A stretch of DNA of 64,000 nt from Nitrososphaerota archaeon (GCA_041641305.1 JBEPYN010000002.1:384001-448000), one strand, 5' to 3'. Shown: positions 1-64,000, counted from the stretch's first letter. The notes: generated from the sequence alone by a model not told the origin. Made by a program: numbers and translations.

Positions 1-2938
1 TCAGCGGGTACCCTCTGGTTAGTGCTATCCTTAGGCCTGAATCCATTATATGCTTCATATACTTGCCGTCGGGCTTGGCTCTCCTGCGGATGAGGTTGGA
101 TGAGAAGACTGCTAGGGTCACGACAACTATAACAGGCCCTGTTATCTCATCTATTTTGGAGAGTTCGCTGGCCGTTATGACTCGGTAAGGCGCGTCTGAG
201 AGCAGGTTTTTCATGATTTGGTCAGGCAGGGTCGGGGCCTTCGCGACGTCGTCGACGAGGTATGCGGTCCATTTCTGTGGAGTAGCCTTGAGAAGGTCTT
301 GGAGCCTCACCTTGGCCCTAGCCTGCTCAGGCCCCTTCTTCTCGGCCTCAGGTACTGGCTTAGGATGACCGGTCTCTCCTTTCTCACTGATAGTCTCCTC
401 CTCAGCCTGCTCAAGGGCTGCCCTGTATTCGTTTATCGCGAACGGGATTACGGAGCTTAGGCTTGTTATGAAGCTGGCGCGGTCCCCATCTGTTGGGAAC
501 TCGCGTCTCTGCGCCAGCATGTTGGCGGCCCTGTACGCCGCCTTGTCGACGTCAGGTTCATGGGCCACGCTTTCAACAGCCTGCCTCAGCTCATCTTCAT
601 CAACCAGCCCCTCTATGTTGTTTATTATCCACCTCGGTATCTCCCACCGCGGCTTTGTAGCGGCTTTGCTCTCGACTTGTTGTGTGGGCTCTGACTCGGC
701 ACGGCTTTCCACGGTCTCCTGAGTCGGCTTAATCGTCGGGAATTGGACTGGCATGGGCTGGATGATGTGCTCCTGAGCTGGCTTAGATTTTATGGAGTGT
801 GTCTCTTCTGTGTCGCCGACCTCAGGTGGCTTGGATGGTGTTGGCGGCTGCGGATGCTCTGCGGGGGCAGTCGGCGGCTCCTCATGTGTATGTATAGGCG
901 GCTTAGATGTTTCGGGCTTTGGCTGGGGAGGCTGTGGTTGTTGAAGTCGTGGTTTTTCAGAGGTCTCAGCGGTTGCCGGGGACGTGGGCTTAGGTATCCT
1001 CGTCCTAAGCTGCGTCAGCATCTCTCTGAGGTGTCTCCCCTCTGCCGCCGCCTCTTTCGCCAATGCTTGTCTCTCGATTAACGCGCCGCAGCTTATGCAG
1101 TACCTTGTCTTCGGAACCGTTTTGCCGCAGTGTGGACACACCGTGTTAACGGCTTTCTCCTCCTTGACTGGTTTGGGTTTCGATGTCTCAGCCTCCTCCG
1201 TCACTCGCCTTTCTTCGACCTGCTCAACCTCCACCTTGGAGGCATGCCGCAGAAGCCTAGTCCCGCATGATATGCAGTAGGCGCTGCCGGGTCTCACCTT
1301 GGCGCCGCATGACGGGCACCTGTTTGAAAGGATGGTTTCGACGACTTCTTCAACGAGCACCGCGATTGGTTTCGGCGGGTTCTGCATCACGTGTTCGACG
1401 CCTTCCACTCGGAGTTCTTCGGAGAGTTCTTCCAGCTCATGTTCCTGTAAAGCCTTCAGCTCCGGGTCTGTCCACAGTAGTTCTATGTTTCTGTCCGCTG
1501 ACTCGCTGCTGCTTACCACGGACATTTTCTTGACCCATGTGTTCAACACCCGCTGGCTCGCGGGAGCGTATCCCCTGTAGGCCAGCAGGGTTGTCAGGAG
1601 GTGTCCCGCCCACATTCCCTGGTTGAACGCCGTCTTCCTACCCATCGCCTCATACTCGTATATCAGGTAGAGCCGTTGGTGGATATCGCGTGCCGCGTCC
1701 AGCTCCTCGAGCAGCTCCGCCATCGCCCCCTCATCTACGGCCTTTAACAACGCCACCAGAGTCCCGGCAGAGAGCGGCCTGTAACGGTCTATCAGCTCGA
1801 GGAGGAGTTTGTAGCCTTGGCTCGCCCATGCGAGATTTGTTTTCAGCACATCGCTAACCCATTTCTCCTCCACCTCTCTGCGGCTCTTCTCCCTTTTCCG
1901 CGAAGACGTAACCATTCTGTAGACCACGGCTGCCGCGGCTGCGGCGCCTCCTCCACCGACCACAAGCGGCAGGTCGTTGAAGTGTAGTAACCGTGTCGAG
2001 CCTATGGCTATGTAGGGGCAGGGGTTCATTTCCTCGAACACGGCTTCTATGGTCACGAATCCCGCTGGCACGTTTATCGCGACGCTCTCTGTGTAAACGG
2101 CCTCCAGCGCCTTCAGCCCGGTCCACTTCACAAGACGGCCGCAGCCCTCGGGCACGGCCTCCAAGTAGACCGTCGTGTCAGGGGCTATCACACCTTCCCA
2201 GCGAGGAGTTCCCAAAACCTCCCCGGTTATCGGTTTCGTCGATACCACGACCTTGCCCGGTCCTCTAGCGATGACGGATAGGTAGGCAAAGTCTATTAGC
2301 TGGGGCGGTGGGCTGGAGCCTTTTCTCTCGGCTGAGAGCGTGAGCGTGCTGTTCTCCTCTGCCGTGAATATGTATACCTCGCTTTTTGACACGGCCTTGT
2401 CGCCCTGCATCCACCCCGCTATGTAGCACTCCTGTGCAGGGGTGGCTGATAGCTCTGCTTGGCTCCCCTTTCTCCACGGCCCGGCTATATATGAGCCGTT
2501 GACATAATTGACAGGCGCGTTTGCGGTCACGTTGGCGACGCAGCCGGGGTTGGTAGGGGTGATTGTTACGTAGACCGGCGGAGGCCTGCTGTATGCAAAA
2601 GTTATCCTAACAACGTTAACTCCTTTCTTCATGACTACGTCGACGTAGAGTTTGCCCGCCTCTATGAACGGGCTGCGGGCCAGCTCCCCCTCTACAGAGG
2701 CTCTGCAGCTAAGGTCTTTGAGCTGGATTATTATCGAGGCGAGGGCGCCGCTGGATGCGGCGACGTATCTGCCGGGCTCGGCCGGCGTCAACATGTTGCC
2801 GTCCACCACCACGTTTGCCACACATTCGGGCTCGTTGATTATTATCTCCAGCGATGTTTCCTGTGCATGGGATGGGAAGGTTATTACTGGGGCGGCTGCT
2901 AGGATGAGTGTTAGAAGCATTAGAAATATTCTATACAT
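1..2938 (-). CDS. Large bitopic membrane protein (>979 aa, runs off the window start): signal peptide, extracellular beta-rich InlB-B-repeat-like region, TM helix, cytoplasmic double zinc ribbon and Pro/Glu-rich linker
   Basis: Not in the ORF track; translated by hand as an open frame from ATG 2938 (MYRIFLMLLTLILAAAPVITFPSHAQ) to position 1. TM LPLVVGGGGAAAAAAVVY followed by RKREKSRR; zinc ribbons CPSCGAKVRPGSAYCISCG and CPHCGKTVPKTRYCISCG. Start overlaps the stop of the FtsZ-like gene. Confidence 0.85.
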   Translation of the reverse strand, partial: MYRIFLMLLTLILAAAPVITFPSHAQETSLEIIINEPECVANVVVDGNMLTPAEPGRYVAASSGALASIIIQLKDLSCRASVEGELARSPFIEAGKLYVDVVMKKGVNVVRITFAYSRPPPVYVTITPTNPGCVANVTANAPVNYVNGSYIAGPWRKGSQAELSATPAQECYIAGWMQGDKAVSKSEVYIFTAEENSTLTLSAERKGSSPPPQLIDFAYLSVIARGPGKVVVSTKPITGEVLGTPRWEGVIAPDTTVYLEAVPEGCGRLVKWTGLKALEAVYTESVAINVPAGFVTIEAVFEEMNPCPYIAIGSTRLLHFNDLPLVVGGGGAAAAAAVVYRMVTSSRKREKSRREVEEKWVSDVLKTNLAWASQGYKLLLELIDRYRPLSAGTLVALLKAVDEGAMAELLEELDAARDIHQRLYLIYEYEAMGRKTAFNQGMWAGHLLTTLLAYRGYAPASQRVLNTWVKKMSVVSSSESADRNIELLWTDPELKALQEHELEELSEELRVEGVEHVMQNPPKPIAVLVEEVVETILSNRCPSCGAKVRPGSAYCISCGTRLLRHASKVEVEQVEERRVTEEAETSKPKPVKEEKAVNTVCPHCGKTVPKTRYCISCGALIERQALAKEAAAEGRHLREMLTQLRTRIPKPTSPATAETSEKPRLQQPQPPQPKPETSKPPIHTHEEPPTAPAEHPQPPTPSKPPEVGDTEETHSIKSKPAQEHIIQPMPVQFPTIKPTQETVESRAESEPTQQVESKAATKPRWEIPRWIINNIEGLVDEDELRQAVESVAHEPDVDKAAYRAANMLAQRREFPTDGDRASFITSLSSVIPFAINEYRAALEQAEEETISEKGETGHPKPVPEAEKKGPEQARAKVRLQDLLKATPQKWTAYLVDDVAKAPTLPDQIMKNLLSDAPYRVITASELSKIDEITGPVIVVVTLAVFSSNLIRRRAKPDGKYMKHIMDSGLRIALTRGYPL

Positions 2939-3947
2939 AGAGCCTCGCGCCTCCAATAAGTACTGTTACGCTTGTCTTCTCGGCGTCAGGCCTCTTGGCT
3001 AGTAGCGTCTTCATTTCCTTGACCTCTGCTCCAAGAATCGTGGAGAGCTGGCCGGGTATTGCTTCTATGTGTTGTGGCGACATGGTTCCTTTTCCGGTTT
3101 CGATGAAGGCAATGACTCCTAGGCTTCCGCGGCCCCGTACGACGGAGACTAGGGAGCTGGAGTTGTGTTGGGATAGGCTGTGTATCTCGTCGGGTGTAGG
3201 TAGGAGCCACTGCATGGCTAAGACGAGCCCACGCAGCATTCTTCGCAGGTCGCTGCTGTCGATGTCTGTTATCGACCTGCCGCTGCTCATTGTTCGGAGG
3301 AGCGTGGACAATGGTTTAAGCATCTTCTCGTTTACTGTATTCAGCGCCTTGGTGATGTCGATGCTTTGTATCTCTTGGATGAGGTATGAGTTGCTCGCCG
3401 GGATGACCGGAGCATGTTTAGCCGCCTCCTCAAGCGCCTTCACAGCCCGTTTATACGTCTCTCTCCCCTCCCATGGGAAGGGAAGGGTACATATCCCGAG
3501 GATGCATGAACTGGGGTAGTGTTTGACGAGGTCCTGTATCAGGGCTGGTCCCGCGCCCGAGCCGCAGCCGAAGCCAGCCGTGAATATGACTGGTATCAGG
3601 TCTATTCTCTCCATTCCCTTCTCCTCCGCAACTTTCTTCGGCAGCTCAATTATCGCCCTGCGCGAGGGGTGGTCGAGATAATCTCTTCTACCCTTGTCAG
3701 GGTTCATCCCGCTTCCGGTTCCGTCTCCGATGACGTAAAGGTGTTTGTCGACGTAGGCTCTGAGCCTCTCTATGTCTGCTCTGCTGCTGCTTATGCAGAC
3801 GGGCTCGGTGGCTGGAAGCGTGTTTAGGAGGCGCCTGCCGCCGGGGGCGACCCCTTTCACAAGGACTGCCGCGAGCTTGCTTCCACCGCTTCCAACTCCG
3901 TAAACGACGGGAATGGTTAGAGGTTGGTGTGTTTCTCCAATGCTCAT
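2931..3947 (-). CDS. Divergent FtsZ/tubulin-superfamily GTPase
   Basis: T1 loop VYGVGSGGSKL, T3-like GTGSGMNPDKGR, T4 signature variant AGFGCGSGAGP (canonical GGGTGTG), T5 LPFPWEG, T7-like DIDSSDLRRML; 338 aa. Confidence 0.85.
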   Translation of the reverse strand: MSIGETHQPLTIPVVYGVGSGGSKLAAVLVKGVAPGGRRLLNTLPATEPVCISSSRADIERLRAYVDKHLYVIGDGTGSGMNPDKGRRDYLDHPSRRAIIELPKKVAEEKGMERIDLIPVIFTAGFGCGSGAGPALIQDLVKHYPSSCILGICTLPFPWEGRETYKRAVKALEEAAKHAPVIPASNSYLIQEIQSIDITKALNTVNEKMLKPLSTLLRTMSSGRSITDIDSSDLRRMLRGLVLAMQWLLPTPDEIHSLSQHNSSSLVSVVRGRGSLGVIAFIETGKGTMSPQHIEAIPGQLSTILGAEVKEMKTLLAKRPDAEKTSVTVLIGGARLYV

Positions 3948-4228
3948 TCGTCGAGCACCTCCATTAACTTGAGAAACGCCTCCAAGTGACCTTGGTAACC
4001 ATCCCTATACATCATCTCGGCCGCTTTCCTGAGAATATGGGAAGCGATGACGTGGGCTGTGAAGGGACGGCTCCGCTCTTCGTTGAAGAAGTGTTTTATC
4101 CGGGTTACCGCTTCCTCGGGCTTGGTGTGCTCCGTGATGTAAAGTATGTCTGGGAGCTTTGGGTAGATGCTTCTACATGCCTCGGCTATGTATGATGATA
4201 GGATGTTTTCATGCACCGGCTTCTGCAT
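3944..4228 (-). CDS. Hypothetical protein (94 aa), overlapping its neighbours between the membrane protein and the FtsZ-like gene
   Basis: ORF overlaps both neighbours; helical, charged composition. Confidence 0.6.
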   Translation of the reverse strand: MQKPVHENILSSYIAEACRSIYPKLPDILYITEHTKPEEAVTRIKHFFNEERSRPFTAHVIASHILRKAAEMMYRDGYQGHLEAFLKLMEVLDE

Positions 4229-6557
4229 GCAGGCTCACCCCCAGCTTCTGGAGCTTGTTGAGGAAGTTTCTCCAAGCGGCTTCGGGGTTGCCGCCGGAGG
4301 TCACCTGTCTATAGGCTGTGACGTAGAGGTCTCTGGCCTCGCCGTAGCTCATGCCGTTGACAATCTTCTTCGCTATCTCGGCCTCGAAGCCTGGGAAGGT
4401 TTGCCTGAACTCTATCGCCCAAATGCTGTCGAGCGCAAGTTCTGGCGGCGCCCCCTCCTCCAGCATCTCTATGAACGAGGTCACCGTCGCCGAGCCTCTG
4501 AACATCTCCGCCATGTTTACAAGCTCGGTGAACTGGCTGTAGTCAAGTCTCTGCAGCAGGTTCTTCTCCGCGAGCAGGCTAGCCACTATGGCCGGCGTCT
4601 TCGAGCTCGGTATCGGCGGGAAAGTTATCTCGCCTTTTTTGCCGAGGGCTACGATGAGCAGGCGAGCTGACGCGGCTGCTTGCGCAAGCCACGGCGAGCC
4701 ACGTGTCTCGATGACCACTGTGTCGGCACCCTTAGCCAGCTTCTTCAGCTCGGTTGCGGCGGCGTCGGGGCTTGGTGGAAGCACTATGTTTCCTATGAAG
4801 GCGGCTTTTCTCCCCGCTTCTCTGAGAGCCTGTTCAACAGCTCTGCGGGTCAGAAGCTGGTCTCCCACTGCCACGGTTATCAGGCCTACCTTGACACTGC
4901 TCGCAAGCCTCTGAAGCTGCTTAGCCTCTCTCATGTATATGGCCGGCTTCTCGTCCGGTTCAAGCTTCACGTATCCCTCGGCGACTGCGTTGAAGATGTT
5001 CTCGTCGAACCGGGTTAGCTGGAGAAGCGACGAGGGCGCTGTTATCCGCCTATGCCTCTCGACAGCAACCTTCTCCAGCTCCTCGACTTTATCGAGTGTC
5101 TCCAGCTCCTCCTCGGCGAGAGCTGTCTCCTCCTCGTCCGGCTCGCCCTCTTCAACGGGGTTCACCAGATTGACGTTGTCCATCATCTCAGCCAACGGCT
5201 CAGGCGCCTTGAACACCGCTGAGGCGGGCGGCTCGTTGCCCACTTCGATAATCTGTATAGCTGGTGGTCCTCTGTCAATTATGGGTGCGATGCGGCGCCT
5301 CAGCCCGGCAGCCGTCCTCACCCCGCCGGCCACCGCTGCGCGTAGACTGCTTGCCGAGGTTTTTCTCGCGAATATGTAGGAGCCTGCGGCTGCTGATGCG
5401 AATATGGCTATGGGCGACGCCAGCGCGAGGGGATATGGTAGTGTCATGGGCTGTGGGTGGAGCAGAGCCAGTATCCTGTAGCCCGCCTCCGCGAGGCTGT
5501 AGAGGGCTTCGCCGACGACGGGTATGTTCAGTAACGCGGCGTGTCCCTTCGGCTTATACATGAGGGTTATGTAGAGCGGTTTCTCTAGCTTAGCAACCAC
5601 GGTCTCCATCTCCTGTGAAGAGGGTGTGAACAGCCTGTCTCCAACCGATACAGCGGACATGTAGGCCTCCTTCATCGCCGTTGGAGCCTCTACCACGACG
5701 GTCTTCCCCTCTCTATCAATCAGCTTGATTTGGGAGGCTATCACCAGCTCTTTGCCGTTGACGATTACAGAGACCGGCACGGGGGAATCGGCCTCGAGGA
5801 TGTAGGGGACGTATGTGTAGTAGACCGGCTCGATGAGGCTGAGCAGGGGCTCGGGCACGGGCTGGATAGGCAGCGTAACGTTGTATCCCATTATCCTGAT
5901 GGCCTCGGCTCTTTGCACACGTCCATCCGGGAGCTGGATATCGGGGAAGACCGGTCTCTTGAACAGGTAGAGCGGATAGTACTCGTCTAGGAATTTCCTG
6001 TAGGCGTAGAAGTTGGCGACGAGGGTTATGCTCTTGTTCACTTTCATGGATGAGGTTGGCGAGTCTATCCTCAGCCCGTCTGGTCCCTCCCAGTAGAGAA
6101 AGATGTACTTCATGTCGCCTTCGAGCACCTCTCTCTGCACGCTGAACTCGACTGTTTCGCCGGGCCTGACTATCCTCGGCTTAGGCAGGTTCAGCATGGT
6201 AGACGATATGTTGGCCGCGAACGCCACGTACAGCCTCGGTATAACGCTGCCGTTTTCCCTGTAAAGCCTCTCGAAGACCGCGACAGCCTCGATGTTGCCG
6301 AAGACGTAGAAGGTGAACGGGTTGGCAGACACTTCTCTGGGAAGCCCGCCTCCAGAGAAAACCCACTTGGAGAACCGGCACTCGGTCGTCGGCCTCGCCT
6401 CAATCGTCGCCTGCACACCCTCTCTGTAGAGCCCGGCTCCGATGAGGGCGGCGGCGCACTCCGCCGGCGACGCTGAAAGGCTGACGCTGTACTGAGCCTC
6501 TTGCGCAGGTGACAGGGCCGTCGCAATCAGTAGAAGCACCAGCATAACATGTATCAT
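4209..6557 (-). CDS. Large bitopic membrane protein: signal peptide, InlB-B-repeat-like extracellular domains, TM, acidic cytoplasmic domain
   Basis: N-terminal hydrophobic signal; repeats such as IEARPTTECRFSKW...AVF and YIFLYWEG...LVANF; TM PIAIFASAAAGSYIF-ARK; 782 aa. Confidence 0.75.
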   Translation of the reverse strand: MIHVMLVLLLIATALSPAQEAQYSVSLSASPAECAAALIGAGLYREGVQATIEARPTTECRFSKWVFSGGGLPREVSANPFTFYVFGNIEAVAVFERLYRENGSVIPRLYVAFAANISSTMLNLPKPRIVRPGETVEFSVQREVLEGDMKYIFLYWEGPDGLRIDSPTSSMKVNKSITLVANFYAYRKFLDEYYPLYLFKRPVFPDIQLPDGRVQRAEAIRIMGYNVTLPIQPVPEPLLSLIEPVYYTYVPYILEADSPVPVSVIVNGKELVIASQIKLIDREGKTVVVEAPTAMKEAYMSAVSVGDRLFTPSSQEMETVVAKLEKPLYITLMYKPKGHAALLNIPVVGEALYSLAEAGYRILALLHPQPMTLPYPLALASPIAIFASAAAGSYIFARKTSASSLRAAVAGGVRTAAGLRRRIAPIIDRGPPAIQIIEVGNEPPASAVFKAPEPLAEMMDNVNLVNPVEEGEPDEEETALAEEELETLDKVEELEKVAVERHRRITAPSSLLQLTRFDENIFNAVAEGYVKLEPDEKPAIYMREAKQLQRLASSVKVGLITVAVGDQLLTRRAVEQALREAGRKAAFIGNIVLPPSPDAAATELKKLAKGADTVVIETRGSPWLAQAAASARLLIVALGKKGEITFPPIPSSKTPAIVASLLAEKNLLQRLDYSQFTELVNMAEMFRGSATVTSFIEMLEEGAPPELALDSIWAIEFRQTFPGFEAEIAKKIVNGMSYGEARDLYVTAYRQVTSGGNPEAAWRNFLNKLQKLGVSLHAEAGA

Positions 6558-6564: not shown

Positions 6565-8403
6565 TCACCCGTAGTGGAAGATGCTCATCATGGAGTTGCC
6601 CACCGGCACTATGGCGTAGTAGCTGGCGGCGGTCACCAGCATCGCCACAGCTATCCTCAGCATGTTGTAGGGATGTCCGTCGACGGCCCGTCCTATTATC
6701 AGCATGTAGAACAGGGTACCCATGGCTATCATCACCATCCCGGCGTCGGCCATCATCATCATTTCCTCGGGGGTTGTCTGGGCTAGGCCTATTCCTGCTC
6801 CTGCGCCGCCGGCGATGGCGGCTCCCTCGCTCGGTATCTGGAGTATTGAGCCAAGGTTCGCGATTGGCAGAACCATCCCTATCGTGACAGCGGTTATCAG
6901 CGGCATGGCGAGGGCCAGCCATTTGAAGGGCGAGAGCCTGCCCACCATCTTCTCCCTCGCGAGGCTGTAGCCTCTGAGCAGCTCCACCAGCTTGTCCATC
7001 AGGTAGGGGCTGCCGCCGCCCGAGAGGTTTATGCTGTGTAGCAGGAACAGCGATATTCTGAGGAGCCAGCTCCGCGTGATGCCCGCGCCCGCCTCCCAGA
7101 TAGTGAACCCCATCGACATACGCGCCACTATTGCGTCGAGTATTTTCTTGAACTCAGGCGCATACCTGTGTCCTGCTGTCTTGAGGATGGCTGTTGACGG
7201 AGGGTTCCCCAGTCTCCTGAACTCGGTCACGTCCTTGAGCCAGCGGCGGGACTCCGTGTCGCATGCCTTGAGCTCCTTTATCAAAGGCCTCATCTGTATA
7301 TACACGCCTATACACGCCGCGGCGAGGGGTATGGTGAACATAAGCGTCATCGGGGCCTTTGCGAGCATGAGTGGGGGAAGCGTGGCCACAGCCATGGCTG
7401 CGCCAAACGCTACGGCTTTCGGTGTCAGCTTGATGTCGTCGAGATGCTTCGGGCTCTTGCTCCTCACGAAGAAGTACATTAGCATGCCGACCATGGGGAT
7501 TAGCCCGACTGTCATGAACGTGACGAGGGGAGCGGCCTGCGCCGGGCTTGTGACCGCTGTGAGCACTATGCCCATGGGGAGGAGGAGCAGAAGTATTATG
7601 AACGCCTCCATCACCGCTGACACGGTTGTCGCGAAGCGGTCGTATTTTTCCTCGAGGCTTTTAAGCAGCTCCGTCGCCCTGTCCTCCAGCACCGACACCA
7701 TGCTTCCACCCATCCGCCAGACGCTGGTGGCCGCGAACACTAGGTTCTGGAACCCATCGTGGGGGTGTGAGGAGGCGTGGACCTCTAAGCTCTCTATCAC
7801 GCCTCTGCCGGTGAGCTCGGCCATTCTCTGAACATCCTCGGCCTCCTGCGACATCTGGCTGAAGAGACGTTTACCGGTTTTGGTCAACAGCTTCATGCTA
7901 GCGTAAAGCGTGAGCCCGCAGTGTGCTAGAATCGAGGAATATACTGCGAAAAACGGGAGCTCCCACTCGGTCTTCTCCTTCCTCTCACTCGCTTTGCTTC
8001 TGAGAAGTAGCTGATTCATTCCTGCTACTGAGAGGGGTGCAGCGGCTAGGGATGCCAGCAGCATGTGCGGCCCAGGCCCGGCTATGAATAGCGTGTATAT
8101 GCATGCCGCGGCTATGGCTGCCGCGAGGGCTGTTGCCGAGGCTAGGTGGGCGGCCATCTCCTCCGCGACGTCGTAGGGGATGCGCTTCAGCCCCGCCTTC
8201 TCGCAGAGCGTCGTCGCCGTACGCAGAAGCTTCTCCGAAAGCCGGGGAACCGCGGCTGAGCCTGCGGCCACTGCTGCGAAGAAGAGCGGGATGGGTAGCA
8301 GGTATTCCGGGCCGCCGGGGCCAAGTATCTCCATGTAGATTATCCATATGGCGGCTGCGGCTGCTGCAACGATGAGGTAGATTATGCGTGGACTCATCTC
8401 CAA
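6565..8403 (-). CDS. Type IV pilus/type II secretion system F-family membrane platform (TadC/FlaJ-like)
   Basis: 612-aa polytopic protein with two T2SSF-like halves (ELPFFAVY..SIL..G; GGSMVSVLE; GGGSPYLMDKL); directly downstream of the secretion ATPase. Confidence 0.85.
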   Translation of the reverse strand: MEMSPRIIYLIVAAAAAAIWIIYMEILGPGGPEYLLPIPLFFAAVAAGSAAVPRLSEKLLRTATTLCEKAGLKRIPYDVAEEMAAHLASATALAAAIAAACIYTLFIAGPGPHMLLASLAAAPLSVAGMNQLLLRSKASERKEKTEWELPFFAVYSSILAHCGLTLYASMKLLTKTGKRLFSQMSQEAEDVQRMAELTGRGVIESLEVHASSHPHDGFQNLVFAATSVWRMGGSMVSVLEDRATELLKSLEEKYDRFATTVSAVMEAFIILLLLLPMGIVLTAVTSPAQAAPLVTFMTVGLIPMVGMLMYFFVRSKSPKHLDDIKLTPKAVAFGAAMAVATLPPLMLAKAPMTLMFTIPLAAACIGVYIQMRPLIKELKACDTESRRWLKDVTEFRRLGNPPSTAILKTAGHRYAPEFKKILDAIVARMSMGFTIWEAGAGITRSWLLRISLFLLHSINLSGGGSPYLMDKLVELLRGYSLAREKMVGRLSPFKWLALAMPLITAVTIGMVLPIANLGSILQIPSEGAAIAGGAGAGIGLAQTTPEEMMMMADAGMVMIAMGTLFYMLIIGRAVDGHPYNMLRIAVAMLVTAASYYAIVPVGNSMMSIFHYG

Positions 8404-10941: not shown

Positions 10942-10959
10942 CTGTCAACATGTTGACAG
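10942..10959. repeat. Dispersed palindrome copy (CTGTCAACATGTTGACAG)
   Basis: Perfect 18-bp palindrome, intergenic, about 22 bp upstream of an AATAAATA box. Confidence 0.9.
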
Positions 10960-10968
10960 CCCCGCTGT

Positions 10969-13969: not shown

Positions 13970-13970
13970 G

Positions 13971-14699: not shown

Positions 14700-14714
14700 T
14701 TGGCTAATGGCGGG

Positions 14715-48730: not shown

Positions 48731-48746
48731 TGTCAACATGTTGACA
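48731..48746. repeat. Palindrome copy 90 bp upstream of parB (TGTCAACATGTTGACA)
   Basis: Perfect 16-mer in the hel308-parB intergenic gap. Confidence 0.9.
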
Positions 48747-48753
48747 CCCAGAA

Positions 48754-53658: not shown

Positions 53659-53989
53659 ACCTCAACCTCCTCGGTTCCCTTCTACTCCCACGTTTAGCCA
53701 ACGACAGGAACGAGACGATGAACACGGTTAGCGGCAGAGAGTATAGCAGCCACGACGGGTTCAGCGCGGCTGTGGCGAGGCTTGAGAAAAGCACCAAGGC
53801 GAAAGCTGTCTTAGCGGATATAAGCCCCTTAGGAGAGTCGTAGTCAGGTTCTCCGCCTGCGGCGCTACGGCCCCTCGGGCGAGGCGGGGCCACCGGCTCA
53901 CGGCCGCCTTGGCTCGCTAAGCTGTCGTAAAGCCCCTGCATAGATATGTAGTCCTCGATATAGTTGTCGTCCTCAGCCACTTCCACCAC
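53645..53989 (-). CDS. Small membrane protein (acidic N-terminus, two C-terminal TMs)
   Basis: Overlaps both neighbours within the T4SS string. Confidence 0.6.
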   Translation of the reverse strand: MVEVAEDDNYIEDYISMQGLYDSLASQGGREPVAPPRPRGRSAAGGEPDYDSPKGLISAKTAFALVLFSSLATAALNPSWLLYSLPLTVFIVSFLSLAKRGSRREPRRLRFVDD

Positions 53990-56207: not shown

Positions 56208-56725
56208 CACCACATCCCCCTCCGCATAGCGTAAATCATGGAGGACAGCATTACCGAGAACGCGGCCACGGAGGCGAGTGTGAACCATCTGACGCCCAGT
56301 GGAAACTCCCTCTTAACGGCCTCGTCGCCGACGTATACCTCGACCCTGAAGGTCGCGGATGGGTATGTGAATATCCTCCAAGAAGAGCTGGCCACTCCGT
56401 CTTCGCCGGTTACTAGTTCAACGCTCTGCAGAAGCTCTGCATACGTCACCCTTAGCCGAGTGTTCGCCAAAGGCCTGCACCTAGTATAGTCCATCGCGAC
56501 GGTACCGTTTGGAAGAGTTACCCAGCACTGTCCGCCGCTTCCGACAAGGTCCTCGACCACCATCACCCTGAACTCGTAGGGCCATAGGATGTGGGGCTGT
56601 TGCCTAGAGTCGTAGAACACTATGATACGCGTCGGGCTGGGCGCATCACCTTGGACGTCGCCGTGAACAATCAATGGAAAGACCGCGGCTAGGAGTATGA
56701 CCAGAGCCAGTTTAAGCAGCTTCAT
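56207..56725 (-). CDS. Membrane-anchored protein in the T4SS operon (signal peptide, Ig-like domain, C-terminal TM)
   Basis: ORF track; both termini hydrophobic. Confidence 0.65.
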   Translation of the reverse strand: MKLLKLALVILLAAVFPLIVHGDVQGDAPSPTRIIVFYDSRQQPHILWPYEFRVMVVEDLVGSGGQCWVTLPNGTVAMDYTRCRPLANTRLRVTYAELLQSVELVTGEDGVASSSWRIFTYPSATFRVEVYVGDEAVKREFPLGVRWFTLASVAAFSVMLSSMIYAMRRGMW

Positions 56726-59522
56726 ACAGCATCTCCCTCCTGCTCATCCTCCTTCTCACAAGAGCTCTCTTGTCAGGCTCTATGCGGAAGAACAGGGGCC
56801 TCGGGTCGACGCTCCACTTGAGGAAGGCCTCGCCTGTCCCGAAGCCTTCCAGCCTTCTCCTCTCCTCGTCTGTCAGGTTAAGCAGCTTCTGGGCGTTCAG
56901 GGCCTCGCCCGGGTTACCGTAGCCGAAGGCAATCGTTGTAGAAACGAGGGCCGCCACGGTCGGGACACCTCTTCTCTTAGCCATGTCAGCTTCCTGAAGC
57001 AGGTCATCGAGCAGATGGGTTATCATGACGTAGCTTGTGCCGAACTTTCTCTCCTCCCTGAGATGAGTACCGAGAGGGACTTCGCCGGCTTTTCCAAGCA
57101 GGAACTTGTGGCCCTCGTCGATTATCACCATAAGCCTCACGCCCTCCTTGACCTCTTGGCTGAGCATGTAATCATGTATGTGCTCGAGAATGCTCCAAGT
57201 GATTAGCCTCTGCATGTCGTCGCTCATACGCACCTGCCCGCCGCCCGACTGGGCGCGGAAACTCACTATCACTACACCCCCCTCCACCAGCAAATCCTTC
57301 AGCAGCACATCGGTCCTATCGAGCGCGAAAGCGCCCTCCGCATAGGGCCTCAGCCTCCGCTCTAGGTCAAGCAGCAGCGTCACCGCGGCGTCGAGCTCAG
57401 GAGAGCCTCCCCGCGAGATAACCAGCTTCTCAGCCTCTCTTCTCCTCCACGCAACGTATGCATAGAGCTGGGCCATTGTGCATTTAGACAGGTTCTCATC
57501 CCTCCATGTGGAGGGGTCCGAGTCATCAACTCCGCCTATCCTCTTGTACATCAGCTTAAGCCCTTGGTAGAGTATGCTGGATTGGGTGGGCTGAAGCGGG
57601 ATAGCGTTGGGCAAAACCGCGTCCACGAACCTGCTTATCCTCTGCTCAGGGGCTAGGCCTGAGAGAAGCAACGGGTTGTATTTCTTGTTGCAGAGGTCTA
57701 TGACGGTGACCTTCAAGCCCATGGAGCTGAGCTCGTCAGCCTCGGCGGCGTATTCTCCGGCCGGGTCTATTATGATGACGGCGGGAGGCTTCCCCGTGCC
57801 AGAGTATTTGCTGAGGCCATCTATCCTGAAGAGCAGCGTCTTTATCAGGGTGGATTTGCCGGTGCCGGGAGAGCCTAGAACAAGCATATGCGGGTTATGA
57901 AGCATCGATGGGTTCCAGTACACAGGCCTGCCATACTCGTCTCTGCCGAGGTATACGCCGTCCTTGGGCATTATTGGCCGGCGCCTGAAAGCCAGCGGGC
58001 TGACGGCGACAAAGTCTCTCGTCAACGCTTTGACAACCGGTATCGGGTTGGGGTCGAAGATGCCTCTCCGCGGCTGAGGCAGGTACATGAACCTGTGGCA
58101 AAGAGCAGCTCCCCAGCCGTCCCCCACCTCCTTAGTGGAGAAGTTCATCGTGTCCAGAAGGCTACGCGCCTCGTGAACATGTTTATCCAACATGTCGAGC
58201 TCTTTCCAAGACATTGCGGCGCTTCTGACCCTCACTTCAACCACTATGCTTATCACGTAAGGTCTCTCACCATGGCTGATTCTCTCAGCCACGTTCATGC
58301 TGCGCCCGGCCTTGAGGTAGCCGGACACAGCACCGCCTACCTGTGCATCCATTCCATAGAGGTCGGCGCGCGCCATCGCCATCCTCATGACGTCGCCGGC
58401 CGACTGCGGAACAATGTGTAACGCTATCCTGAAGTCCTTGAGCGAGTATATCAGGCTGTTAAAGGTGGCGAGGTACATGGGAAGCCTCCTGTCTATGTCA
58501 CGCATCTCGAGGTCGCGGTTGTTGTTGCCCGTCACCGAGACATACCTCGACGCCACCCACTCGCCCCCCTCGCGCCTCAGCAGCACACCTTTCTCCAACA
58601 GCCTGTACTCCCCGTTGCCCAGAGACCAGTGCATATGGGTTAAGCCGGAGAAGCATAGCGGGCATGACGCCTTCTTCACCATCAACGCAGCCCTAACAGC
58701 AGCAACCACCCCAATCAAGCTGCTTAGAAACATGGTGAAACCTAGGGTGCCCAGCCCCACGCTGAAGAAGGTGGCCACGGCCGAGGCCGCCGACGCGGCT
58801 CCGAGGATTATGACATGCATTATGTTTGGCTTCAGCGTTACCCTGTCACCCATCACCGGCTTGTGGTTCATGTAGCTGCTGTCATCTATGAGCACCATGC
58901 CGATGCCTTCGAGGGTTGTAGCCAAGGTTTTCGCCGCGGTTTCGACGCTGTGTGCGGCCCCCTCCTCGTCGCCTTCAACAACCTCTGAATAGAGAATTAT
59001 GTAGGCATATTCTCCCTGCGGCGACCTGTCTATGACGAGCTTCGCCTCCACGTCAGATAACCCCTCAATGGCCTTGACCATCCTATCCAGCAGAAGCATC
59101 CGCTCATGCTCCGTCGTGGTCTCGAAGTTCTTCTGAATATCCGCTATCTTGAGCACTTTCACGGCATAGCCCCTGCTCCTAGACCTGTCCTCAAAAATCA
59201 GCGTCAGCTCCTCAGGCCGCCTAAGCCCGTCGATAAGCCTCACAGCAGGCTGGACCTTGATGCTCACAGGCAGCTCGGACGCAACCGCATGCCAGAACGC
59301 CGGAGACTTCGTGTAGCGTTTAAGGTAACACACCGCGGCCGGATAGGCCCTGCGCCAGACAAGCGACCCAAGCACCAGCGACGGGAAGAATATGGCTAGG
59401 TAGGGCGTATAAGGGGCCAGCGAAGGGCTGAAGGAGAAGACCGCCAGCGTCACTATTATCAAGCCGCCGAAGAACACGGGGCCGATGCCGAGAATCTTGG
59501 CGAGGATGCCCATCGCCTTCAC
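56712..59522 (-). CDS. virB4: VirB4/CedB-like type IV secretion ATPase
   Basis: GVYLGRD..GRPVYW, NPHMLVLGSPGTGKS, IIDPAGEY, YNPL, IIDEGH, REERKFG; N-terminal TMs; 936 aa. Confidence 0.88.
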   Translation of the reverse strand: MKAMGILAKILGIGPVFFGGLIIVTLAVFSFSPSLAPYTPYLAIFFPSLVLGSLVWRRAYPAAVCYLKRYTKSPAFWHAVASELPVSIKVQPAVRLIDGLRRPEELTLIFEDRSRSRGYAVKVLKIADIQKNFETTTEHERMLLLDRMVKAIEGLSDVEAKLVIDRSPQGEYAYIILYSEVVEGDEEGAAHSVETAAKTLATTLEGIGMVLIDDSSYMNHKPVMGDRVTLKPNIMHVIILGAASAASAVATFFSVGLGTLGFTMFLSSLIGVVAAVRAALMVKKASCPLCFSGLTHMHWSLGNGEYRLLEKGVLLRREGGEWVASRYVSVTGNNNRDLEMRDIDRRLPMYLATFNSLIYSLKDFRIALHIVPQSAGDVMRMAMARADLYGMDAQVGGAVSGYLKAGRSMNVAERISHGERPYVISIVVEVRVRSAAMSWKELDMLDKHVHEARSLLDTMNFSTKEVGDGWGAALCHRFMYLPQPRRGIFDPNPIPVVKALTRDFVAVSPLAFRRRPIMPKDGVYLGRDEYGRPVYWNPSMLHNPHMLVLGSPGTGKSTLIKTLLFRIDGLSKYSGTGKPPAVIIIDPAGEYAAEADELSSMGLKVTVIDLCNKKYNPLLLSGLAPEQRISRFVDAVLPNAIPLQPTQSSILYQGLKLMYKRIGGVDDSDPSTWRDENLSKCTMAQLYAYVAWRRREAEKLVISRGGSPELDAAVTLLLDLERRLRPYAEGAFALDRTDVLLKDLLVEGGVVIVSFRAQSGGGQVRMSDDMQRLITWSILEHIHDYMLSQEVKEGVRLMVIIDEGHKFLLGKAGEVPLGTHLREERKFGTSYVMITHLLDDLLQEADMAKRRGVPTVAALVSTTIAFGYGNPGEALNAQKLLNLTDEERRRLEGFGTGEAFLKWSVDPRPLFFRIEPDKRALVRRRMSRREMLYEAA

Positions 59523-59836
59523 CTTCTCAGCCGCGCCACAATGACGATGAACAGGGTTGAGCCGGCCACGAGAGCACCCGGAATTAGCTGTCCGCTCAGG
59601 AGCAGCGCCCCGGAGAAAATGGTCCCTAAAATGATGAATTTATTGAGCTGAGGAGCAGGTGCGTTCCTCGTCCTCCTACCGGCGCCTCTTCTAAGTATGT
59701 CGACAGGCCTGCCATTTTCGTCCCTAACGTACTCGTCATATTCATCGGCCTCGGAGAAGTTTTCCCTAGGTAGCTCAGGAGCTGTGCTAGCCCTCTTCCT
59801 AACCCCAGACTTTAGTCTGAACTCTTCCTCTTCCAT
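59519..59836 (-). CDS. Small two-TM protein immediately upstream of virB4 (VirB3-like position)
   Basis: Charged N-terminus, C-terminal hydrophobic hairpin; overlaps both neighbours. Confidence 0.6.
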   Translation of the reverse strand: MEEEEFRLKSGVRKRASTAPELPRENFSEADEYDEYVRDENGRPVDILRRGAGRRTRNAPAPQLNKFIILGTIFSGALLLSGQLIPGALVAGSTLFIVIVARLRR

Positions 59837-62800
59837 TCATTTTCACCTCCATTTTTTCCAGACTCGGCCCCAGCCTGCCCCCATTCTGGAGGCATCTGGG
59901 ACTCAACCGTATCGCCCACATCATTCTCCTTTTTTCCAAAGTCTCCCCAACTCATGTGCTCCGAGACATCCTCTCTTCCCGCAGCCCACCACGGCACCTT
60001 GAACTCTCCATCTGATTCGGAGCCGACCCGTTCAACAAAAGAGGCGGCGTCCTCCCTCTTCCCCAGAGAATCGGCTACGCTGAAGAGCTCGTCCAGAGTC
60101 TTCGGGTCATCGGCCCCAGAGATGATTTTCTCCCGGAGGCTATCCATGTACTGCTGCTGGAGCTCGGACACTCCGGGGCCCGGCTGATAATCCGCTGGAG
60201 AGACGTCGTAGCCTTTCGCCGAAGCAGCATGGGCACGCGCACCCATCTCCTCCATCACCTTCATGAACTCGTCCAGCTCGTTCTTCGACACCTCATAGGT
60301 CCCCATGCTTGTCTCCACGACAATCCTGTCGCCGCCGTCCATGAGGTTGGTGAGCCTGAAGTCCGGGTCATACGGGTTGGCGACAATCCACATGTATTCC
60401 TCGAATCTTTCCTGGAACCTCTTGTAGTCCTCGGGGGTGCCGTAGGACCTGTGCATGTCGTAGGCATGCTTCACGTCGGAGGGGTCGCCGCCGTAGTCGT
60501 GCTGCCTTATCAGCGGCTGCTCAGCCGACCCCGCTGGATGGAGTATGCCTGTCCTGAACTCGGGCACATAGGCCGGCGTCACAAGAGGCTTCACACCCTC
60601 CGGCGAGAAGGGGTTGTTGTCGGCGGCGAGTGTGAAGGCGGCTGGAGCCCTTATCCTTCCGTCGAGCTGGTCCGAGACGTATCCGAAGAAGGCGCCGGCG
60701 CTCGCGTGGCCTGATGCTGACAGCCTCATACTCATCCAGCCAGCGGCCTTACCCACGGTCGGGGAGAGGATGCCCTCGATAAGGGCTGCGCCAACAACGT
60801 GTTTGCCGAAGTCGCTTCTCGCGAAGCTGTCAACCAAGGTAATCCTCTGCGACATCGTGGAGGGCTTCAGCATGTTTGCGAAGCCTTGTGCAACCTTCTC
60901 TGGACGCGCCTCAACAATCCTGCTCTGCTTAGCCCACCCGATGAGCAGGTCCGCCTTACGCGTAGCCTCTTCCAGCGAATAGCCCTTCATAGTCAGCCTC
61001 TCGGCGTAGGCGTTTCTCACGCTTTCGGCGAACTTCGGGTCGCTCCTGACCGCCGACATGGCGACGCGGACCGTGTAGCTCCTCGTCATGACGCCGAGGG
61101 CCAGCCTCTCGGCCCTCGCGACGATGCCGCCCCTGCCCTCAAGCTCCCGCCTCTTGTCCAGCATCCGCTCCATGATGCCTGAGAACCTTGTCCTCTCAGC
61201 GACCTTGTCCCATGTCTTTCTGTTCTTCTCCCTGGCCTCGGTGGCGGCTTTGAGGAGCTGGTTCTCCTGCCTCCTCTGCGCCCACCTCGCCAGCATATCG
61301 ACACGCGCCATCCTCCGCACGGCGCCGGTGAAGGTTGTCATGAACTTGGCCGCGTGGGTTATGTTGCCGACCTTCCCGACCACGTACTTCATCATCACGC
61401 TCTGGCCACCGACGAGCGACTGGAAGCTGTCTATTATGATGGCTAGTAGGCCTATGGCGAGGCCTATCGCGAACGACTGCCCAATGAGCTCTGACAGGGG
61501 CTTGAGTATCCTCACGCTGCCGACATCGGTCATGAGGATGGGGAGAACGGATATCTGGATGTCACTGCCCGCATAGGTGCCCTTAGCATACTTGTATAGG
61601 ATGGTGGAGACGGATTTCGCAAGCGGTATGCTTGTGTTGAATATTGTGGCGTTGTTCTCCCAGTGCTCTTCCCTATACCTGAGGAGCTCCGCGTTTATTC
61701 GCCTTGTCGCCTCGTGGCTCGGCCCGTCTCTGTACAGCCCTTGCCTGAAGTTCTGGTACCTAGCCCACTCGCCTCTAAAATTGTCCACGGAAATGCCTAG
61801 AATATTGTCGGGCACGTAGCCGCCTGAGGCAAGCTCACGCGTATACTCCCTGTCCTCGTCAAACTTATGCCACTCGACGGGGGGCAGGTAAGGCATGGAC
61901 TCCGAGGCCGTGAAGATGACCCTGAAGCTGTAGCTGAGGCTGTCGGGGACCTCTGGATAACCATCATAACTGTCCCTGATTATTGTCTGGTTAGCGGTTA
62001 CGAAGACTTTCTTCTGCTGGGTTGGGGCATTCAGCTCAAGAGGCTCGTTGCGGTCGATTGCTTCCACGCTCTGAGGCAGAACGTAGGGGCCGTAGCCGTC
62101 TATGAAGCCGGCTGCCTGTATCTCTGCGAAGCTCGAGTCCATGACGGTGTGGTTCCAAGAGGGTGGGTTTGATGTAAACGGTCTGAACTCGTAACTCCAT
62201 GACGGTGTTCCAAGGCGTCTCTCGCAGATGTCTGTGCCGTTGACAGGGCCTCCATGTATCGGGTCTATGTGCCAGCAGACATCGTAGTCATCCATGTTGA
62301 GGTAGACGAAGTAGACGCTCTTGTTTCCGCTATAGTCTCCTCTTGTGTAGTAGTGCCATCTCCAGCAGGTTTCAACGGTTGAGGAGTTTCCGTCGGTCTC
62401 GCATGTGTAGGTCTCGTTTACCTGCCATCTGGTCTCCCTGACCTTGGGAAGGGTTATACCATATATGTTCAGGTCCTCTTTCTTGGTGCCCCAAGGCTGC
62501 TCCGTGAACCAGACGAAGGTTGTGTTCCTGTTGGCGGCGACCATCCACAGGCTCGTCTCGTTATAGAGGTTGGAGGCTTTCCAGAAGCTTTCCCACCTCT
62601 CTTTCCAAATCAGGTACGGGTTGCAGGAGATTGAGCCATCGTCCCATCCGCCGAAGAAGAACTCCCGGTCAGGGTCAGTTCCGGTGCAGGCCATGGCGCT
62701 AGGGTCAGGGTCCTCGGGAACCTTGTGAACTGTTATGTTGCGTGGAGAAGTGTCGTAGAGGGTCACCCACATGTTCAGGAACCAGACGCGCCTCGCGTAG

Positions 62801-63798
62801 GTTCCGTTAATCAAGGACATGCGGTAGCCCTCATCATAGGCGTTGTAGTATCCTCCGCCACCTGTGTCAAATATGGTCTTCTGAGGAGTCTTCAAAACAT
62901 CTCTCATTATTTCTATTATTTGTTCGCAGGTCAGGTTGCCTCCGCGGGGCAGGTTAGCGCATACCTTGTCCCTGTCTATCTCGGGAGGCTGCGTAAACTC
63001 AGCAATGAGAAACGGGTACCACAACGTGTCGTTCTCCCTGTCATAAACCGTGTACCTCACGCCTCCCTCCATTTCGCCAACGGCCCTGCTGGCTATGCTA
63101 AGCTTCTGGATATCAGCGGCCTCCATGATGCTCTGTTCCACATAGCCCGGCGGAGGAGATGCCGCCACTATCGCGACCGGGAGGGCTAGAGTCAAAGCCG
63201 CTCCCAGCACCATCATTGTCTTCCCCGCTGTTCTCGCGAAAGGAATAGCGAAGAGCGCCGCTCCTATAATAAAGAGGGTTGGCGCGACGCCTTTAGCCAA
63301 GCCCACGAAGGCGACCACACCCTCCATGAAGACAACAACCCCCGACAACAGCTTGGCAATGAATATGAGCAGGTTGAAGACGGCGCCGAAGATGAAGCTC
63401 GCTATCGCGGACAGAAGTATCCCCACGCCCGAGAGCCAAGCCGGCAGAAGAGCAAGCATCACGATGGATTGCAACGTGCCGAGACTCATCGCCGCAAGGT
63501 TCACCGCCTTGAGCCACTCGAACGCCATGTCCCTGCTCGCATGCGCCGACGCAATGGCGTCGTCGAAGGTGGCCGTCAAGGGCAGGCTAACTCCCATGCT
63601 CTGCAGGTAACCTGCTAACACAGGCTTGAGCAGCGCGATGCTTCCGACGATAGACAGGATGGCAGCCGTTGACCAGCTATGCATCATCGCTGTCCACCCC
63701 CATCTCCTGAACTGGGGGAGCGGGAGGCTGAAGAGAACTAAGCCGGCTCCGTATACGAGGGCCGCAATCCCGAAGGCAATCTCAGCTTCGTTAGCCAT
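59812..63798 (-). CDS. Giant CedA/TedA (VirB6-like) membrane protein with large extracellular and cytoplasmic extensions
   Basis: N-terminal AALVYGAGLVLFSLPLP..RRWG and GAALFAIPF..RTAG match the CedA pattern; 1328 aa; upstream of virB4. Confidence 0.72.
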   Translation of the reverse strand: MANEAEIAFGIAALVYGAGLVLFSLPLPQFRRWGWTAMMHSWSTAAILSIVGSIALLKPVLAGYLQSMGVSLPLTATFDDAIASAHASRDMAFEWLKAVNLAAMSLGTLQSIVMLALLPAWLSGVGILLSAIASFIFGAVFNLLIFIAKLLSGVVVFMEGVVAFVGLAKGVAPTLFIIGAALFAIPFARTAGKTMMVLGAALTLALPVAIVAASPPPGYVEQSIMEAADIQKLSIASRAVGEMEGGVRYTVYDRENDTLWYPFLIAEFTQPPEIDRDKVCANLPRGGNLTCEQIIEIMRDVLKTPQKTIFDTGGGGYYNAYDEGYRMSLINGTYARRVWFLNMWVTLYDTSPRNITVHKVPEDPDPSAMACTGTDPDREFFFGGWDDGSISCNPYLIWKERWESFWKASNLYNETSLWMVAANRNTTFVWFTEQPWGTKKEDLNIYGITLPKVRETRWQVNETYTCETDGNSSTVETCWRWHYYTRGDYSGNKSVYFVYLNMDDYDVCWHIDPIHGGPVNGTDICERRLGTPSWSYEFRPFTSNPPSWNHTVMDSSFAEIQAAGFIDGYGPYVLPQSVEAIDRNEPLELNAPTQQKKVFVTANQTIIRDSYDGYPEVPDSLSYSFRVIFTASESMPYLPPVEWHKFDEDREYTRELASGGYVPDNILGISVDNFRGEWARYQNFRQGLYRDGPSHEATRRINAELLRYREEHWENNATIFNTSIPLAKSVSTILYKYAKGTYAGSDIQISVLPILMTDVGSVRILKPLSELIGQSFAIGLAIGLLAIIIDSFQSLVGGQSVMMKYVVGKVGNITHAAKFMTTFTGAVRRMARVDMLARWAQRRQENQLLKAATEAREKNRKTWDKVAERTRFSGIMERMLDKRRELEGRGGIVARAERLALGVMTRSYTVRVAMSAVRSDPKFAESVRNAYAERLTMKGYSLEEATRKADLLIGWAKQSRIVEARPEKVAQGFANMLKPSTMSQRITLVDSFARSDFGKHVVGAALIEGILSPTVGKAAGWMSMRLSASGHASAGAFFGYVSDQLDGRIRAPAAFTLAADNNPFSPEGVKPLVTPAYVPEFRTGILHPAGSAEQPLIRQHDYGGDPSDVKHAYDMHRSYGTPEDYKRFQERFEEYMWIVANPYDPDFRLTNLMDGGDRIVVETSMGTYEVSKNELDEFMKVMEEMGARAHAASAKGYDVSPADYQPGPGVSELQQQYMDSLREKIISGADDPKTLDELFSVADSLGKREDAASFVERVGSESDGEFKVPWWAAGREDVSEHMSWGDFGKKENDVGDTVESQMPPEWGQAGAESGKNGGENEWKRKSSD

Positions 63799-63804
63799 TT
63801 CTCA

Positions 63805-64000
63805 TCACCCGAAACCAAGCGAGGCTGCTACCCCGCCTATACCCTTGCTCAGGGCAGAGGCAGCCGCCATCACAATACCCCATCCAGCGAGCGAGCCCAA
63901 GGCGAACCTCCACATCCGCATGATGGTGTTGTCCTGAGCGTTAAGCAGCCAGCCCACGAGGTCGAAGACATTTTGAAAGGTTCTACCGAGGTCTGTGCTG
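63805..64000 (-). CDS. 3' end of a membrane protein (partial), possibly another T4SS membrane component
   Basis: Open frame STDLGRTFQNVFDLVGWLL...IVMAAASALSKGIGGVAASLGFG-stop ends 6 bp before the CedA-like start. Confidence 0.6.
   Translation of the reverse strand, partial: STDLGRTFQNVFDLVGWLLNAQDNTIMRMWRFALGSLAGWGIVMAAASALSKGIGGVAASLGFG

What the first reader, a model, noticed from the sequence alone, without database searches (positions are those of the whole stretch)
1..64000. Archaeal mega-element combining a Ced/Ted-type T4SS, a glycosylated type IV pilus, a tubulin-family GTPase, ParB with candidate parS sites, and its own recombination/helicase kit
Seen: one co-oriented gene string with CedA-like, VirB4, VirD4-like, Hel308, ParB, two RecA-fold ATPases and a mini-MCM, plus a full T4P locus. 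The same palindrome recurs from 10.9 to 51.4 kb, which argues for a single genetic unit. Known: Sulfolobales Ced imports chromosomal DNA after Ups-pilus aggregation, and pNOB8-type plasmids use VirB4/VirD4 ATPases. Inference: a self-contained attachment, DNA-transfer, recombination and segregation system unlike the small Sulfolobus conjugative plasmids.
Basis: partly seen in the sequence, partly recalled or inferred. Interest (0 to 1): 0.85.

Follow-up and report, generated by a model that had tools for sequence, protein, structure and literature searches.

The report
RNA-targeted giant conjugative element in archaea
The window is the middle of a 117-kb mobile, conjugation-type DNA element in a hot-spring archaeon; it has no ordinary integrase, but a small guide RNA at its end spells out the exact chromosomal site it occupies, which suggests RNA-guided insertion of very large DNA.

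Summary
The observation mostly holds. The window lies inside a 116.7-kb insertion (window -37,204 to +79,472) in a Caldarchaeum genome; two relatives have the empty site. All 18 copies of the palindrome lie inside it. T4SS + type IV pilus + ParB + TFB is the known make-up of thaumarchaeal ICEs, so that combination is not new, and nothing supports Ced-type import. There is no ParA, so the parS reading is unproven. The surprise lies outside the window. No tyrosine or serine recombinase was found in the genome. The right end instead encodes an IS110/TasR-fold protein lacking the catalytic serine, followed by a hairpin RNA whose two 10-nt guides match the two chromosomal flanks 116 kb apart and spell the empty site, a likely TATA box. 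A sister element with 98%-identical ends has another guide and sits at another, matching site. The rule holds in 11/14 family loci versus 5/180 with swapped guides. Junction repeats vary (3-7 nt) and both orientations occur, which fits a guided cut plus microhomology joining rather than bridge recombination. This scan found the small (about 1.5-kb) form earlier; its link to a whole conjugative element is new here. Chemistry and transfer are untested.

The parts
1..64000 (.). Central 64 kb of a 116.7-kb element (C2:346,796-463,472; window-relative -37,204 to +79,472). Parts beyond the window, in window-relative numbers: left junction TTTAT at -37,204..-37,200; left filler -37,199..-36,928; tRNA-Ala-like gene -25,903..-25,798; TFB, HerA, NurA -8,778..-4,888; direct-repeat/AT-rich ori or oriT candidate 65,240-65,566; XPD-like helicase and primase large subunit 73,490-76,512; 282-aa RuvC-Nop gene 77,971-78,819 (+); guide RNA 78,820-78,965 with guide A 78,840-78,849 and guide B 78,878-78,887; captured gatD 5' fragment 78,985-79,463; right junction TTTAT 79,468-79,472
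   Evidence: Flanks joined in G009 and adjacent in G011; outer parts
63805..64000 (-). 3' part of the CedA/VirB6-like membrane protein gene (284 aa, runs to 64,659 beyond the window)
   Evidence: weak CedE/CedA hits; sister ortholog PF27251 weak
59812..63798 (-). 1328-aa polytopic protein with a CedA-like N-terminal part
   Evidence: atlas hit below 0.8 is a lead only
56712..59522 (-). VirB4-like ATPase with N-terminal membrane segments
53973..56288 (-). VirD4/HerA-like ATPase with N-terminal membrane segments (coupling-protein candidate)
51412..53658 (-). 748-aa membrane protein conserved in the transfer string
48754..50808 (-). Hel308 helicase, second copy (45% to the host copy)
47634..48641 (-). 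Orphan ParB (CTPase-type boxes, HTH, C-terminal Zn ribbon); among the most divergent genes of the string (35-43% to sisters)
46664..47686 (-). RadB-like RecA-fold ATPase
46135..46737 (-). Short degenerate RecA-fold protein
45360..46151 (-). Mini-MCM (AAA core only)
45127..45261 (.). Palindrome cluster, 3 copies at 59-60 bp spacing
26087..26323 (.). Palindrome cluster, 5 copies
10943..51450 (.). Single palindromes at 10943, 23159, 30518, 33662, 48731, 51435 (four more left of the window)
35308..38363 (+). Low-GC N6-methyltransferase/restriction-type cargo inside the variable 26-45 kb region
15538..23144 (-). Pilin-like genes with class III signal-like N-termini (one pilin-like gene, 22728-23144, is on the plus strand)
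11574..13969 (-). GT87 and PMT-family glycosyltransferases
6565..10193 (-). T4P ATPase and TadC
4209..6557 (-). 782-aa surface protein
2931..3947 (-). Divergent FtsZ/CetZ-like GTPase between two large surface proteins
2..2956 (-). 1110-aa surface protein with Zn ribbons (runs off the left edge of the window)

Best explanation
The window is the core of an integrated conjugative element of Caldarchaeum. Its pilus and surface proteins attach to a recipient, and the VirB6/VirB4/VirD4 machine exports element DNA (inferred from homology). In the recipient the end-encoded RuvC-Nop protein, loaded with its two-guide RNA, opens a 16-bp chromosomal target centred on a TATA-like core and cuts it in a staggered way (target match shown; cutting inferred). 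The incoming element is then joined into the break through 3-7 nt of microhomology, in either orientation, probably helped by the element's own HerA-NurA, Hel308 and RadB-like proteins (inferred). Insertion splits the target, so the occupied chromosome is immune while any empty allele is cut. Release from the old site is imprecise, which leaves stacks of earlier right-hand flanks at the ends. Exchange of the 3' half of the gene plus guide with other family copies retargets the element. The palindrome is the binding site of an element-encoded dimeric protein; ParB is only one candidate.
For: Empty site joined in G009, 19/19 nt, unique among 12 genus genomes. Guide B equals the left flank and guide A is the reverse complement of the right flank. 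No PF00589 or PF00239 recombinase in a 99%-complete genome. Fold matches IS621, ISCro4 and TasR (TM about 0.6, pLDDT 92); acidic RuvC residues invariant, no conserved serine loop. Own-guide half-site within 1.2 kb in 11/14 loci versus 5/180 swapped. Guides of five G009 copies predict syntenic empty sites in G000: three with 1 mismatch in 16, one exact 15-mer, one 13/16. The sister element on a 206-kb contig has the same transfer string, tubulin block and about 98%-identical end blocks, another guide, and another host locus whose junction matches that guide. Junction repeats of 3-7 nt, both orientations and unrelated donor ends. Fillers begin at TATA-like cores.
Against: No read data, so no excised circle, empty allele or expression was seen. 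The RuvC-Nop gene is mosaic between sisters (100% upstream, 55-67% in the 3' third), which equally fits recombination of the backbone into resident small copies. Related T4SS blocks occur without this gene (G030 and G002; G030's block lies near a tRNA-Glu). A bacterial survey found no whole-unit mobility of IS110 loci above 20 kb (10.64898/2026.08.14.744561). The sister's left junction is seen only as a 9-nt match at a contig end. No relaxase was identified, and family loci are related, so the 11/14 count is not fully independent.
Confidence: 0.55

Rival explanations
1. Piggy-back by homologous recombination. Small RuvC-Nop elements do the RNA-guided insertion; the conjugative backbone, whose two ends are homologous to the two ends of the small elements, later recombines into a resident copy and inherits its guide, fillers and site.
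For: The backbone boundaries coincide with sequence shared with small copies; identity between sisters falls inside the RuvC-Nop gene; the family is multi-copy, up to 29 matches per genome; the element carries recombination genes.
Against: Only one RuvC-Nop gene and one left end are present, so a double crossover from linear DNA is needed; no small copy was seen at the polB site in the two relatives examined; small copies may be deletion derivatives of the large one.
Confidence: 0.22
2. Direct RNA-guided strand transfer. The RuvC domain uses a donor 3'-OH as nucleophile (DDE-like) or an unrecognised residue replaces the serine, so the protein is an integrase needing no host repair.
For: RNase H-type fold with conserved acidic residues; guides overlap by 4 nt at the core as in bridge RNAs; several junctions have a clean 5-bp repeat.
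Against: Repeat length varies from 3 to 7 nt, donor ends share no sequence, the RNA's second part does not match any donor junction, and no Ser or Tyr is at least 90% conserved in the loop.
Confidence: 0.13
3. Retention or promoter control only. Another, unrecognised enzyme inserts the element; the guided protein merely cuts empty alleles (TnpB-like retention) or binds promoters.
For: TasR drives plasmid loss rather than integration (PMC12045711); targets are TATA-like; several small element ORFs have no known function.
Against: Minimal family elements of about 1.5-2.5 kb bounded by their split targets carry little besides this gene and RNA; no recombinase was found; a guide would have to be rewritten after each move.
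Confidence: 0.08
4. Domesticated Ced/Ted-like import locus that is part of the chromosome.
For: The best NCBIfam hits of VirB4 and the small membrane protein are CedB and CedA/CedE; HerA-NurA and recombination genes are nearby.
Against: Scores are far below the cut-offs; found in 3 of 60 relatives; precise empty site; sister at another locus.
Confidence: 0.02

Closest known systems
Thaumarchaeal (Nitrososphaeria) integrative-conjugative elements, e.g. NCAV2-E1/E2, NitEve-E6 (PMC6563490, PMC5797428)
   Same: VirB4 + VirD4 + VirB6, TadC, pilus ATPase, pilins, TFIIB homolog, ParB-like protein, helicases/primase, no recognisable relaxase; chromosomally integrated
   Different: NCAV2 ICEs sit in tRNA genes with 21-24 bp att repeats and the class median is 64 kb; this one is 116.7 kb, has no tyrosine integrase, sits in a TATA-like site with a 5-bp repeat, and carries a guide RNA matching that site
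TIGR-TasR (PMC12045711)
   Same: RuvC-coiled coil-Nop fold without the IS110 serine loop; tandem guides that read opposite strands
   Different: One stem-loop unit rather than an array; guides overlap by 4 nt; the natural target is the element's own insertion site; TasR has no reported role in integration
IS110/IS1111 bridge recombinases (IS621, ISCro4) and expanded IS110 loci up to about 100 kb (10.64898/2026.08.14.744561)
   Same: Fold; downstream non-coding RNA with left and right target guides; large plasmid-like cargo; end extensions homologous to host DNA
   Different: No catalytic serine or D102 equivalent, no donor-binding loop matching the ends, either orientation, variable junction repeat; two sister elements above 110 kb at different guide-matched sites
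Ced/Ted DNA import systems (PMC9905601)
   Same: VirB4-like ATPase and VirB6/CedA-like channel; nearby HerA
   Different: Ced/Ted are chromosomal and domesticated; this machinery is element-borne, scores one tenth of the CedB cut-off and has a VirD4-like partner
pNOB8-type Sulfolobus conjugative plasmids (PMC9899855)
   Same: TrbE/TraG-type ATPase pair; can integrate
   Different: Only 27-28% identity over about 200 aa to Sulfolobus plasmid ATPases; no ParA, no tyrosine integrase; carries a T4P locus

Membership tests
Thaumarchaeal-type ICE | VirB4 and VirD4 ATPase pair plus VirB6-like membrane protein | tested here: met
   (VirB6/CedA and VirD4 assignments rest on weak hits and synteny)
Thaumarchaeal-type ICE | T4P components, TFIIB homolog and ParB-like protein on the element | tested here: met
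   prepilin peptidase not on the element; TFB not adjacent to ParB
Thaumarchaeal-type ICE | Integrated, with an empty site in relatives | tested here: met
Thaumarchaeal-type ICE | Tyrosine integrase and long att repeats at a tRNA gene | tested here: not met
Thaumarchaeal-type ICE | Excision and cell-to-cell transfer | not testable with these tools
Ced/Ted import system | CedA/CedB orthologs above family cut-off | tested here: not met
   CedB 69.7/700, CedA 19.7/330 bits
Ced/Ted import system | Chromosomal, vertically inherited locus | tested here: not met
   3 of 60 relatives, empty sites
ParABS partition system | ParB with CTPase boxes and HTH | tested here: met
   TIGR00180 above cut-off; closest structures Noc and Spo0J
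ParABS partition system | Cognate ParA | tested here: not met
   the only PF13614 hit is outside the element
ParABS partition system | Palindrome is the ParB loading site | tested here: inconclusive
   Variant palindrome at homologous positions in G002, whose ParB is the closest (43%), and absent near more distant ParBs; but it persists in a G009 remnant without this ParB and a sister with the divergent ParB has two copies in its left arm
IS110 bridge recombinase | RuvC + Tnp/Nop fold with tandem target guides in a flanking RNA | tested here: met
IS110 bridge recombinase | DEDD tetrad plus catalytic serine in the C-terminal loop | tested here: not met
   D6, D47, D92 kept; third position A/T; loop shorter than in IS621 (comparison from memory) with no conserved Ser
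IS110 bridge recombinase | Donor-binding loop matching fixed element ends; fixed core and orientation | tested here: not met
TIGR-TasR | RuvC-Nop protein without serine loop and with dual opposite-strand spacers | tested here: met
TIGR-TasR | Array of repeated guide units | tested here: not met
   single unit in all 14 loci aligned; no tandem array at the right end
TIGR-TasR | RNA-guided DNA cleavage | not testable with these tools
   needs biochemistry

The most novel reading that the evidence does not exclude
A single 282-aa serine-less RuvC-Nop protein with one short two-guide RNA directs de novo insertion of an entire conjugative element above 110 kb into chosen TATA-like sites, with no integrase and no fixed donor ends, and the element changes its chromosomal address by swapping the guide module: an RNA-guided ICE.
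Probability: 0.5. Interest if true: 0.92.

Novelty: new variant of a known kind. Interest (0 to 1): 0.8.

Why it matters
It would give TasR-like nucleases, whose natural targets and role are open questions, a demonstrable job: placing mobile DNA. It would also be a natural case of whole-unit movement of more than 100 kb under guide-RNA control, which a recent bacterial IS110 survey did not find above 20 kb. The protein is compact and comes from a thermophile, and its target can be read from the guide, so the claim is directly testable and relevant to large-cargo genome engineering. Separately, it extends archaeal ICEs to Caldarchaeales and provides a defined candidate DNA site for an orphan archaeal ParB.

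Tried and rejected
Tyrosine and serine recombinases: none in the genome. tRNA att site: no long repeat between the two boundary zones; the tRNA-like piece at the left end is a filler relic and has no partner at the right end. ARAGORN with introns and a lowered threshold gave mostly noise. G030:C2 as a free element: it is chromosomal beyond 25 kb and not circular. Palindrome in viral contigs: 15 single hits, not followed up, consistent with chance. Co-varying palindromes near distant ParBs: no recurrent replacement motif found. Host CRISPR spacers: no match to the element among 64 extracted. One search used a structure I mis-registered on the alignment and is discarded; one search is the valid covariation result. 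Record-level searches of metagenome contigs were unavailable, so the pilus ATPase itself was not seen on the sister's 206-kb contig (its tubulin and a large upstream ORF were). A VirB4 tree against CedB/TedB/TrbE was not built because those sequences were not in hand; profile scores were used instead. The paper on a recurring motif in Sulfolobus conjugative plasmids was not held, so that comparison rests on memory only.
Full report
Observation. The 16-bp palindrome has 14 core matches in the window and 18 in the 1.66-Mb genome, all within 81 kb around the window. Chance predicts 0.007 in the element, and 16 of 18 copies are outside ORFs.

Host and limits of the element. Homologs of element proteins are labelled Candidatus Caldarchaeum, and the closest relative G009 has the length of Ca. 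C. subterraneum, 1,680,938 bp. In G009 and G011 the polB-like gene left of the region is followed directly by the gene that lies 116.7 kb further on in this genome. Base-level alignment puts the ends at C2:346,796 and 463,472 (window coordinate = C2 minus 384,000), each with TTTAT; the empty site reads CCAACC TTTAT AACAT. VirB4 was found in 3 of 60 relatives. The host has separate Hel308, RNR, T4P and archaellum loci. So this is an inserted element, about 7% of the genome.

What is known already. Thaumarchaeal ICEs carry VirB4, VirD4, VirB6, TadC, pilus ATPases, pilins, TFIIB and ParB and lack relaxases (PMC6563490). FtsZ-like genes occur in archaeal T4P loci (PMC4858521). The VirB4 belongs to a group of about 930-aa proteins, far below the CedB cut-off and 27-28% identical over short stretches to Sulfolobus plasmid ATPases. 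The gene mix is therefore that of an ICE, not evidence of Ced-type import. The modules are separable: the T4P block occurs without tubulin beside a host gene, and the T4SS block occurs without ParB in G030. They recur together in G002 on separate contigs; on the sister's 206-kb contig the T4SS string and the tubulin end of the pilus block were both seen.

Palindrome and ParB. ParB passes TIGR00180 and resembles Noc/Spo0J, but there is no ParA on the element. Related elements in G002 and G003 have a variant with the same arms and an AT-rich centre at homologous positions, so the site is a real cis element under selection. It survives in a G009 remnant lacking this ParB, and no matching motif was found beside more distant ParBs. 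I put parS at about 40%, an operator for another element regulator at about 40%, and a recombination or replication site at about 20% (judgement).

How it got there. No tyrosine or serine recombinase was found in this 99%-complete genome, and there is no tRNA att repeat. The last intact gene of the element (window-relative 77,971-78,819) encodes a 282-aa protein that folds like IS621, ISCro4 and TasR. D6, D47, K87 and D92 are invariant in 62 homologs, but the loop that carries the catalytic serine in IS110 recombinases is short and has no conserved serine. Behind the stop codon lies a conserved RNA with a covarying inner hairpin and two open loops. One loop equals the left flank of the element and the other is the reverse complement of the right flank; together they spell the empty site with a 4-nt overlap.

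Test of the guide rule. The gene family is multi-copy in Caldarchaeales. In 14 loci whose RNA could be parsed, 11 have an exact 8-nt own-guide half-site within 1.2 kb downstream, against 5 of 180 with swapped guides. Guides from five G009 copies predict empty sites at syntenic places in this genome. A sister element with the same transfer string and about 98%-identical end blocks carries a 76%-identical protein, a different guide and a different chromosomal neighbour; its right junction matches its guide A at 10 of 11 nt, and the corresponding empty site here matches its guide B over 10 nt.

Mechanism. Across nine elements with both ends visible, the junction repeat is 3-7 nt and overlaps the core, both orientations occur, and the inner ends share no sequence. 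Between the conserved backbone and the junctions lie fillers of tens to hundreds of bases, several of them 5' fragments of host genes that start at TATA-like cores, such as 479 bp of gatD here. This does not fit bridge recombination, which needs the serine and a donor-matching loop. It fits a guided staggered cut followed by microhomology joining, with imprecise release from the previous site. Shown: boundaries, guide-target match, fold, missing serine, junction pattern. Inferred: expression, cleavage, role of the repair genes, conjugative export. The main rival is that the backbone recombines into resident small copies; the gene is mosaic between sisters, which fits both that and retargeting by module swap.

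Novelty. As an ICE it is a new member of a known class; its insertion system is a new variant relative to both IS110 and TIGR-TasR. A 2026 preprint describes bacterial IS110 loci up to about 100 kb with plasmid cargo but no whole-unit mobility above 20 kb. In the paper searches run here I found no description of a serine-less guided protein placing a conjugative element. Earlier notes of this scan described the small form of the RNA-guided element and its promoter matches; I had derived the guide-target match before reading them, and took the TATA-box reading from them and then checked it. Interest 0.8.

Noticed in passing
L005:18097-18202 and L005 about 6950-7045 (left of the window): The element carries a tRNA-Ala(GGC)-like gene with an insert in the T-arm region, and the left filler holds a degenerate tRNA-Arg-like relic with an insert at the same position.
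   Followed up: partly
G009:C1:899,000-934,000 (L075, L028): Ca. C. subterraneum holds a remnant of a related element (primase, XPD, SMC-like and phosphoesterase-like ORFs, helicase, TFB, HerA-NurA, 4-5 palindromes) without VirB4 or this ParB; it is not among the two elements listed for this genome in the PMC6563490 supplement passages retrieved.
   Followed up: partly
G000 C1:440-454 kb, C1:516 kb onward, C2:517.8-519.3 kb: Three more RuvC-Nop copies: one brackets a CRISPR-Cas locus with its split target about 14.6 kb apart, one borders restriction-modification cargo, one is a 1.5-kb minimal element.
   Followed up: partly
G030:C2:1-25,700 (L029, L030): The same T4SS block in another Caldarchaeales family, without Hel308/ParB or the RuvC-Nop gene, ending near a tRNA-Glu: probably the same transfer module on a differently integrating element.
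   Followed up: partly
L008:5240-8400 (just right of the window): Repeat-flanked AT-rich stretch followed by about 3 kb of GC-rich, apparently non-coding DNA shared with other family islands; the repeat type differs in the sister element.
   Followed up: partly
L006:2528-4783, L005:14053-15270, L006:6996-9338: Second ribonucleotide reductase-like gene (56% to the host copy) and two further SF2 helicases on the element.
   Followed up: no
G003:C27 and C41; G004:C36: Close homologs of the element tubulin (54-64%) occur twice in one genome, once away from the pilus operon, and as a broken gene in another.
   Followed up: partly
window 23454-23774 and 24837-25124: Two Alba-family genes in the cargo next to the pilins (Pfam calls on the identical contig).
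   Followed up: no
window 32291-33640 and 42039-43286: Two unannotated paralogs of about 420-450 aa (27% identical) in the cargo; the first has a palindrome directly upstream.
   Followed up: no
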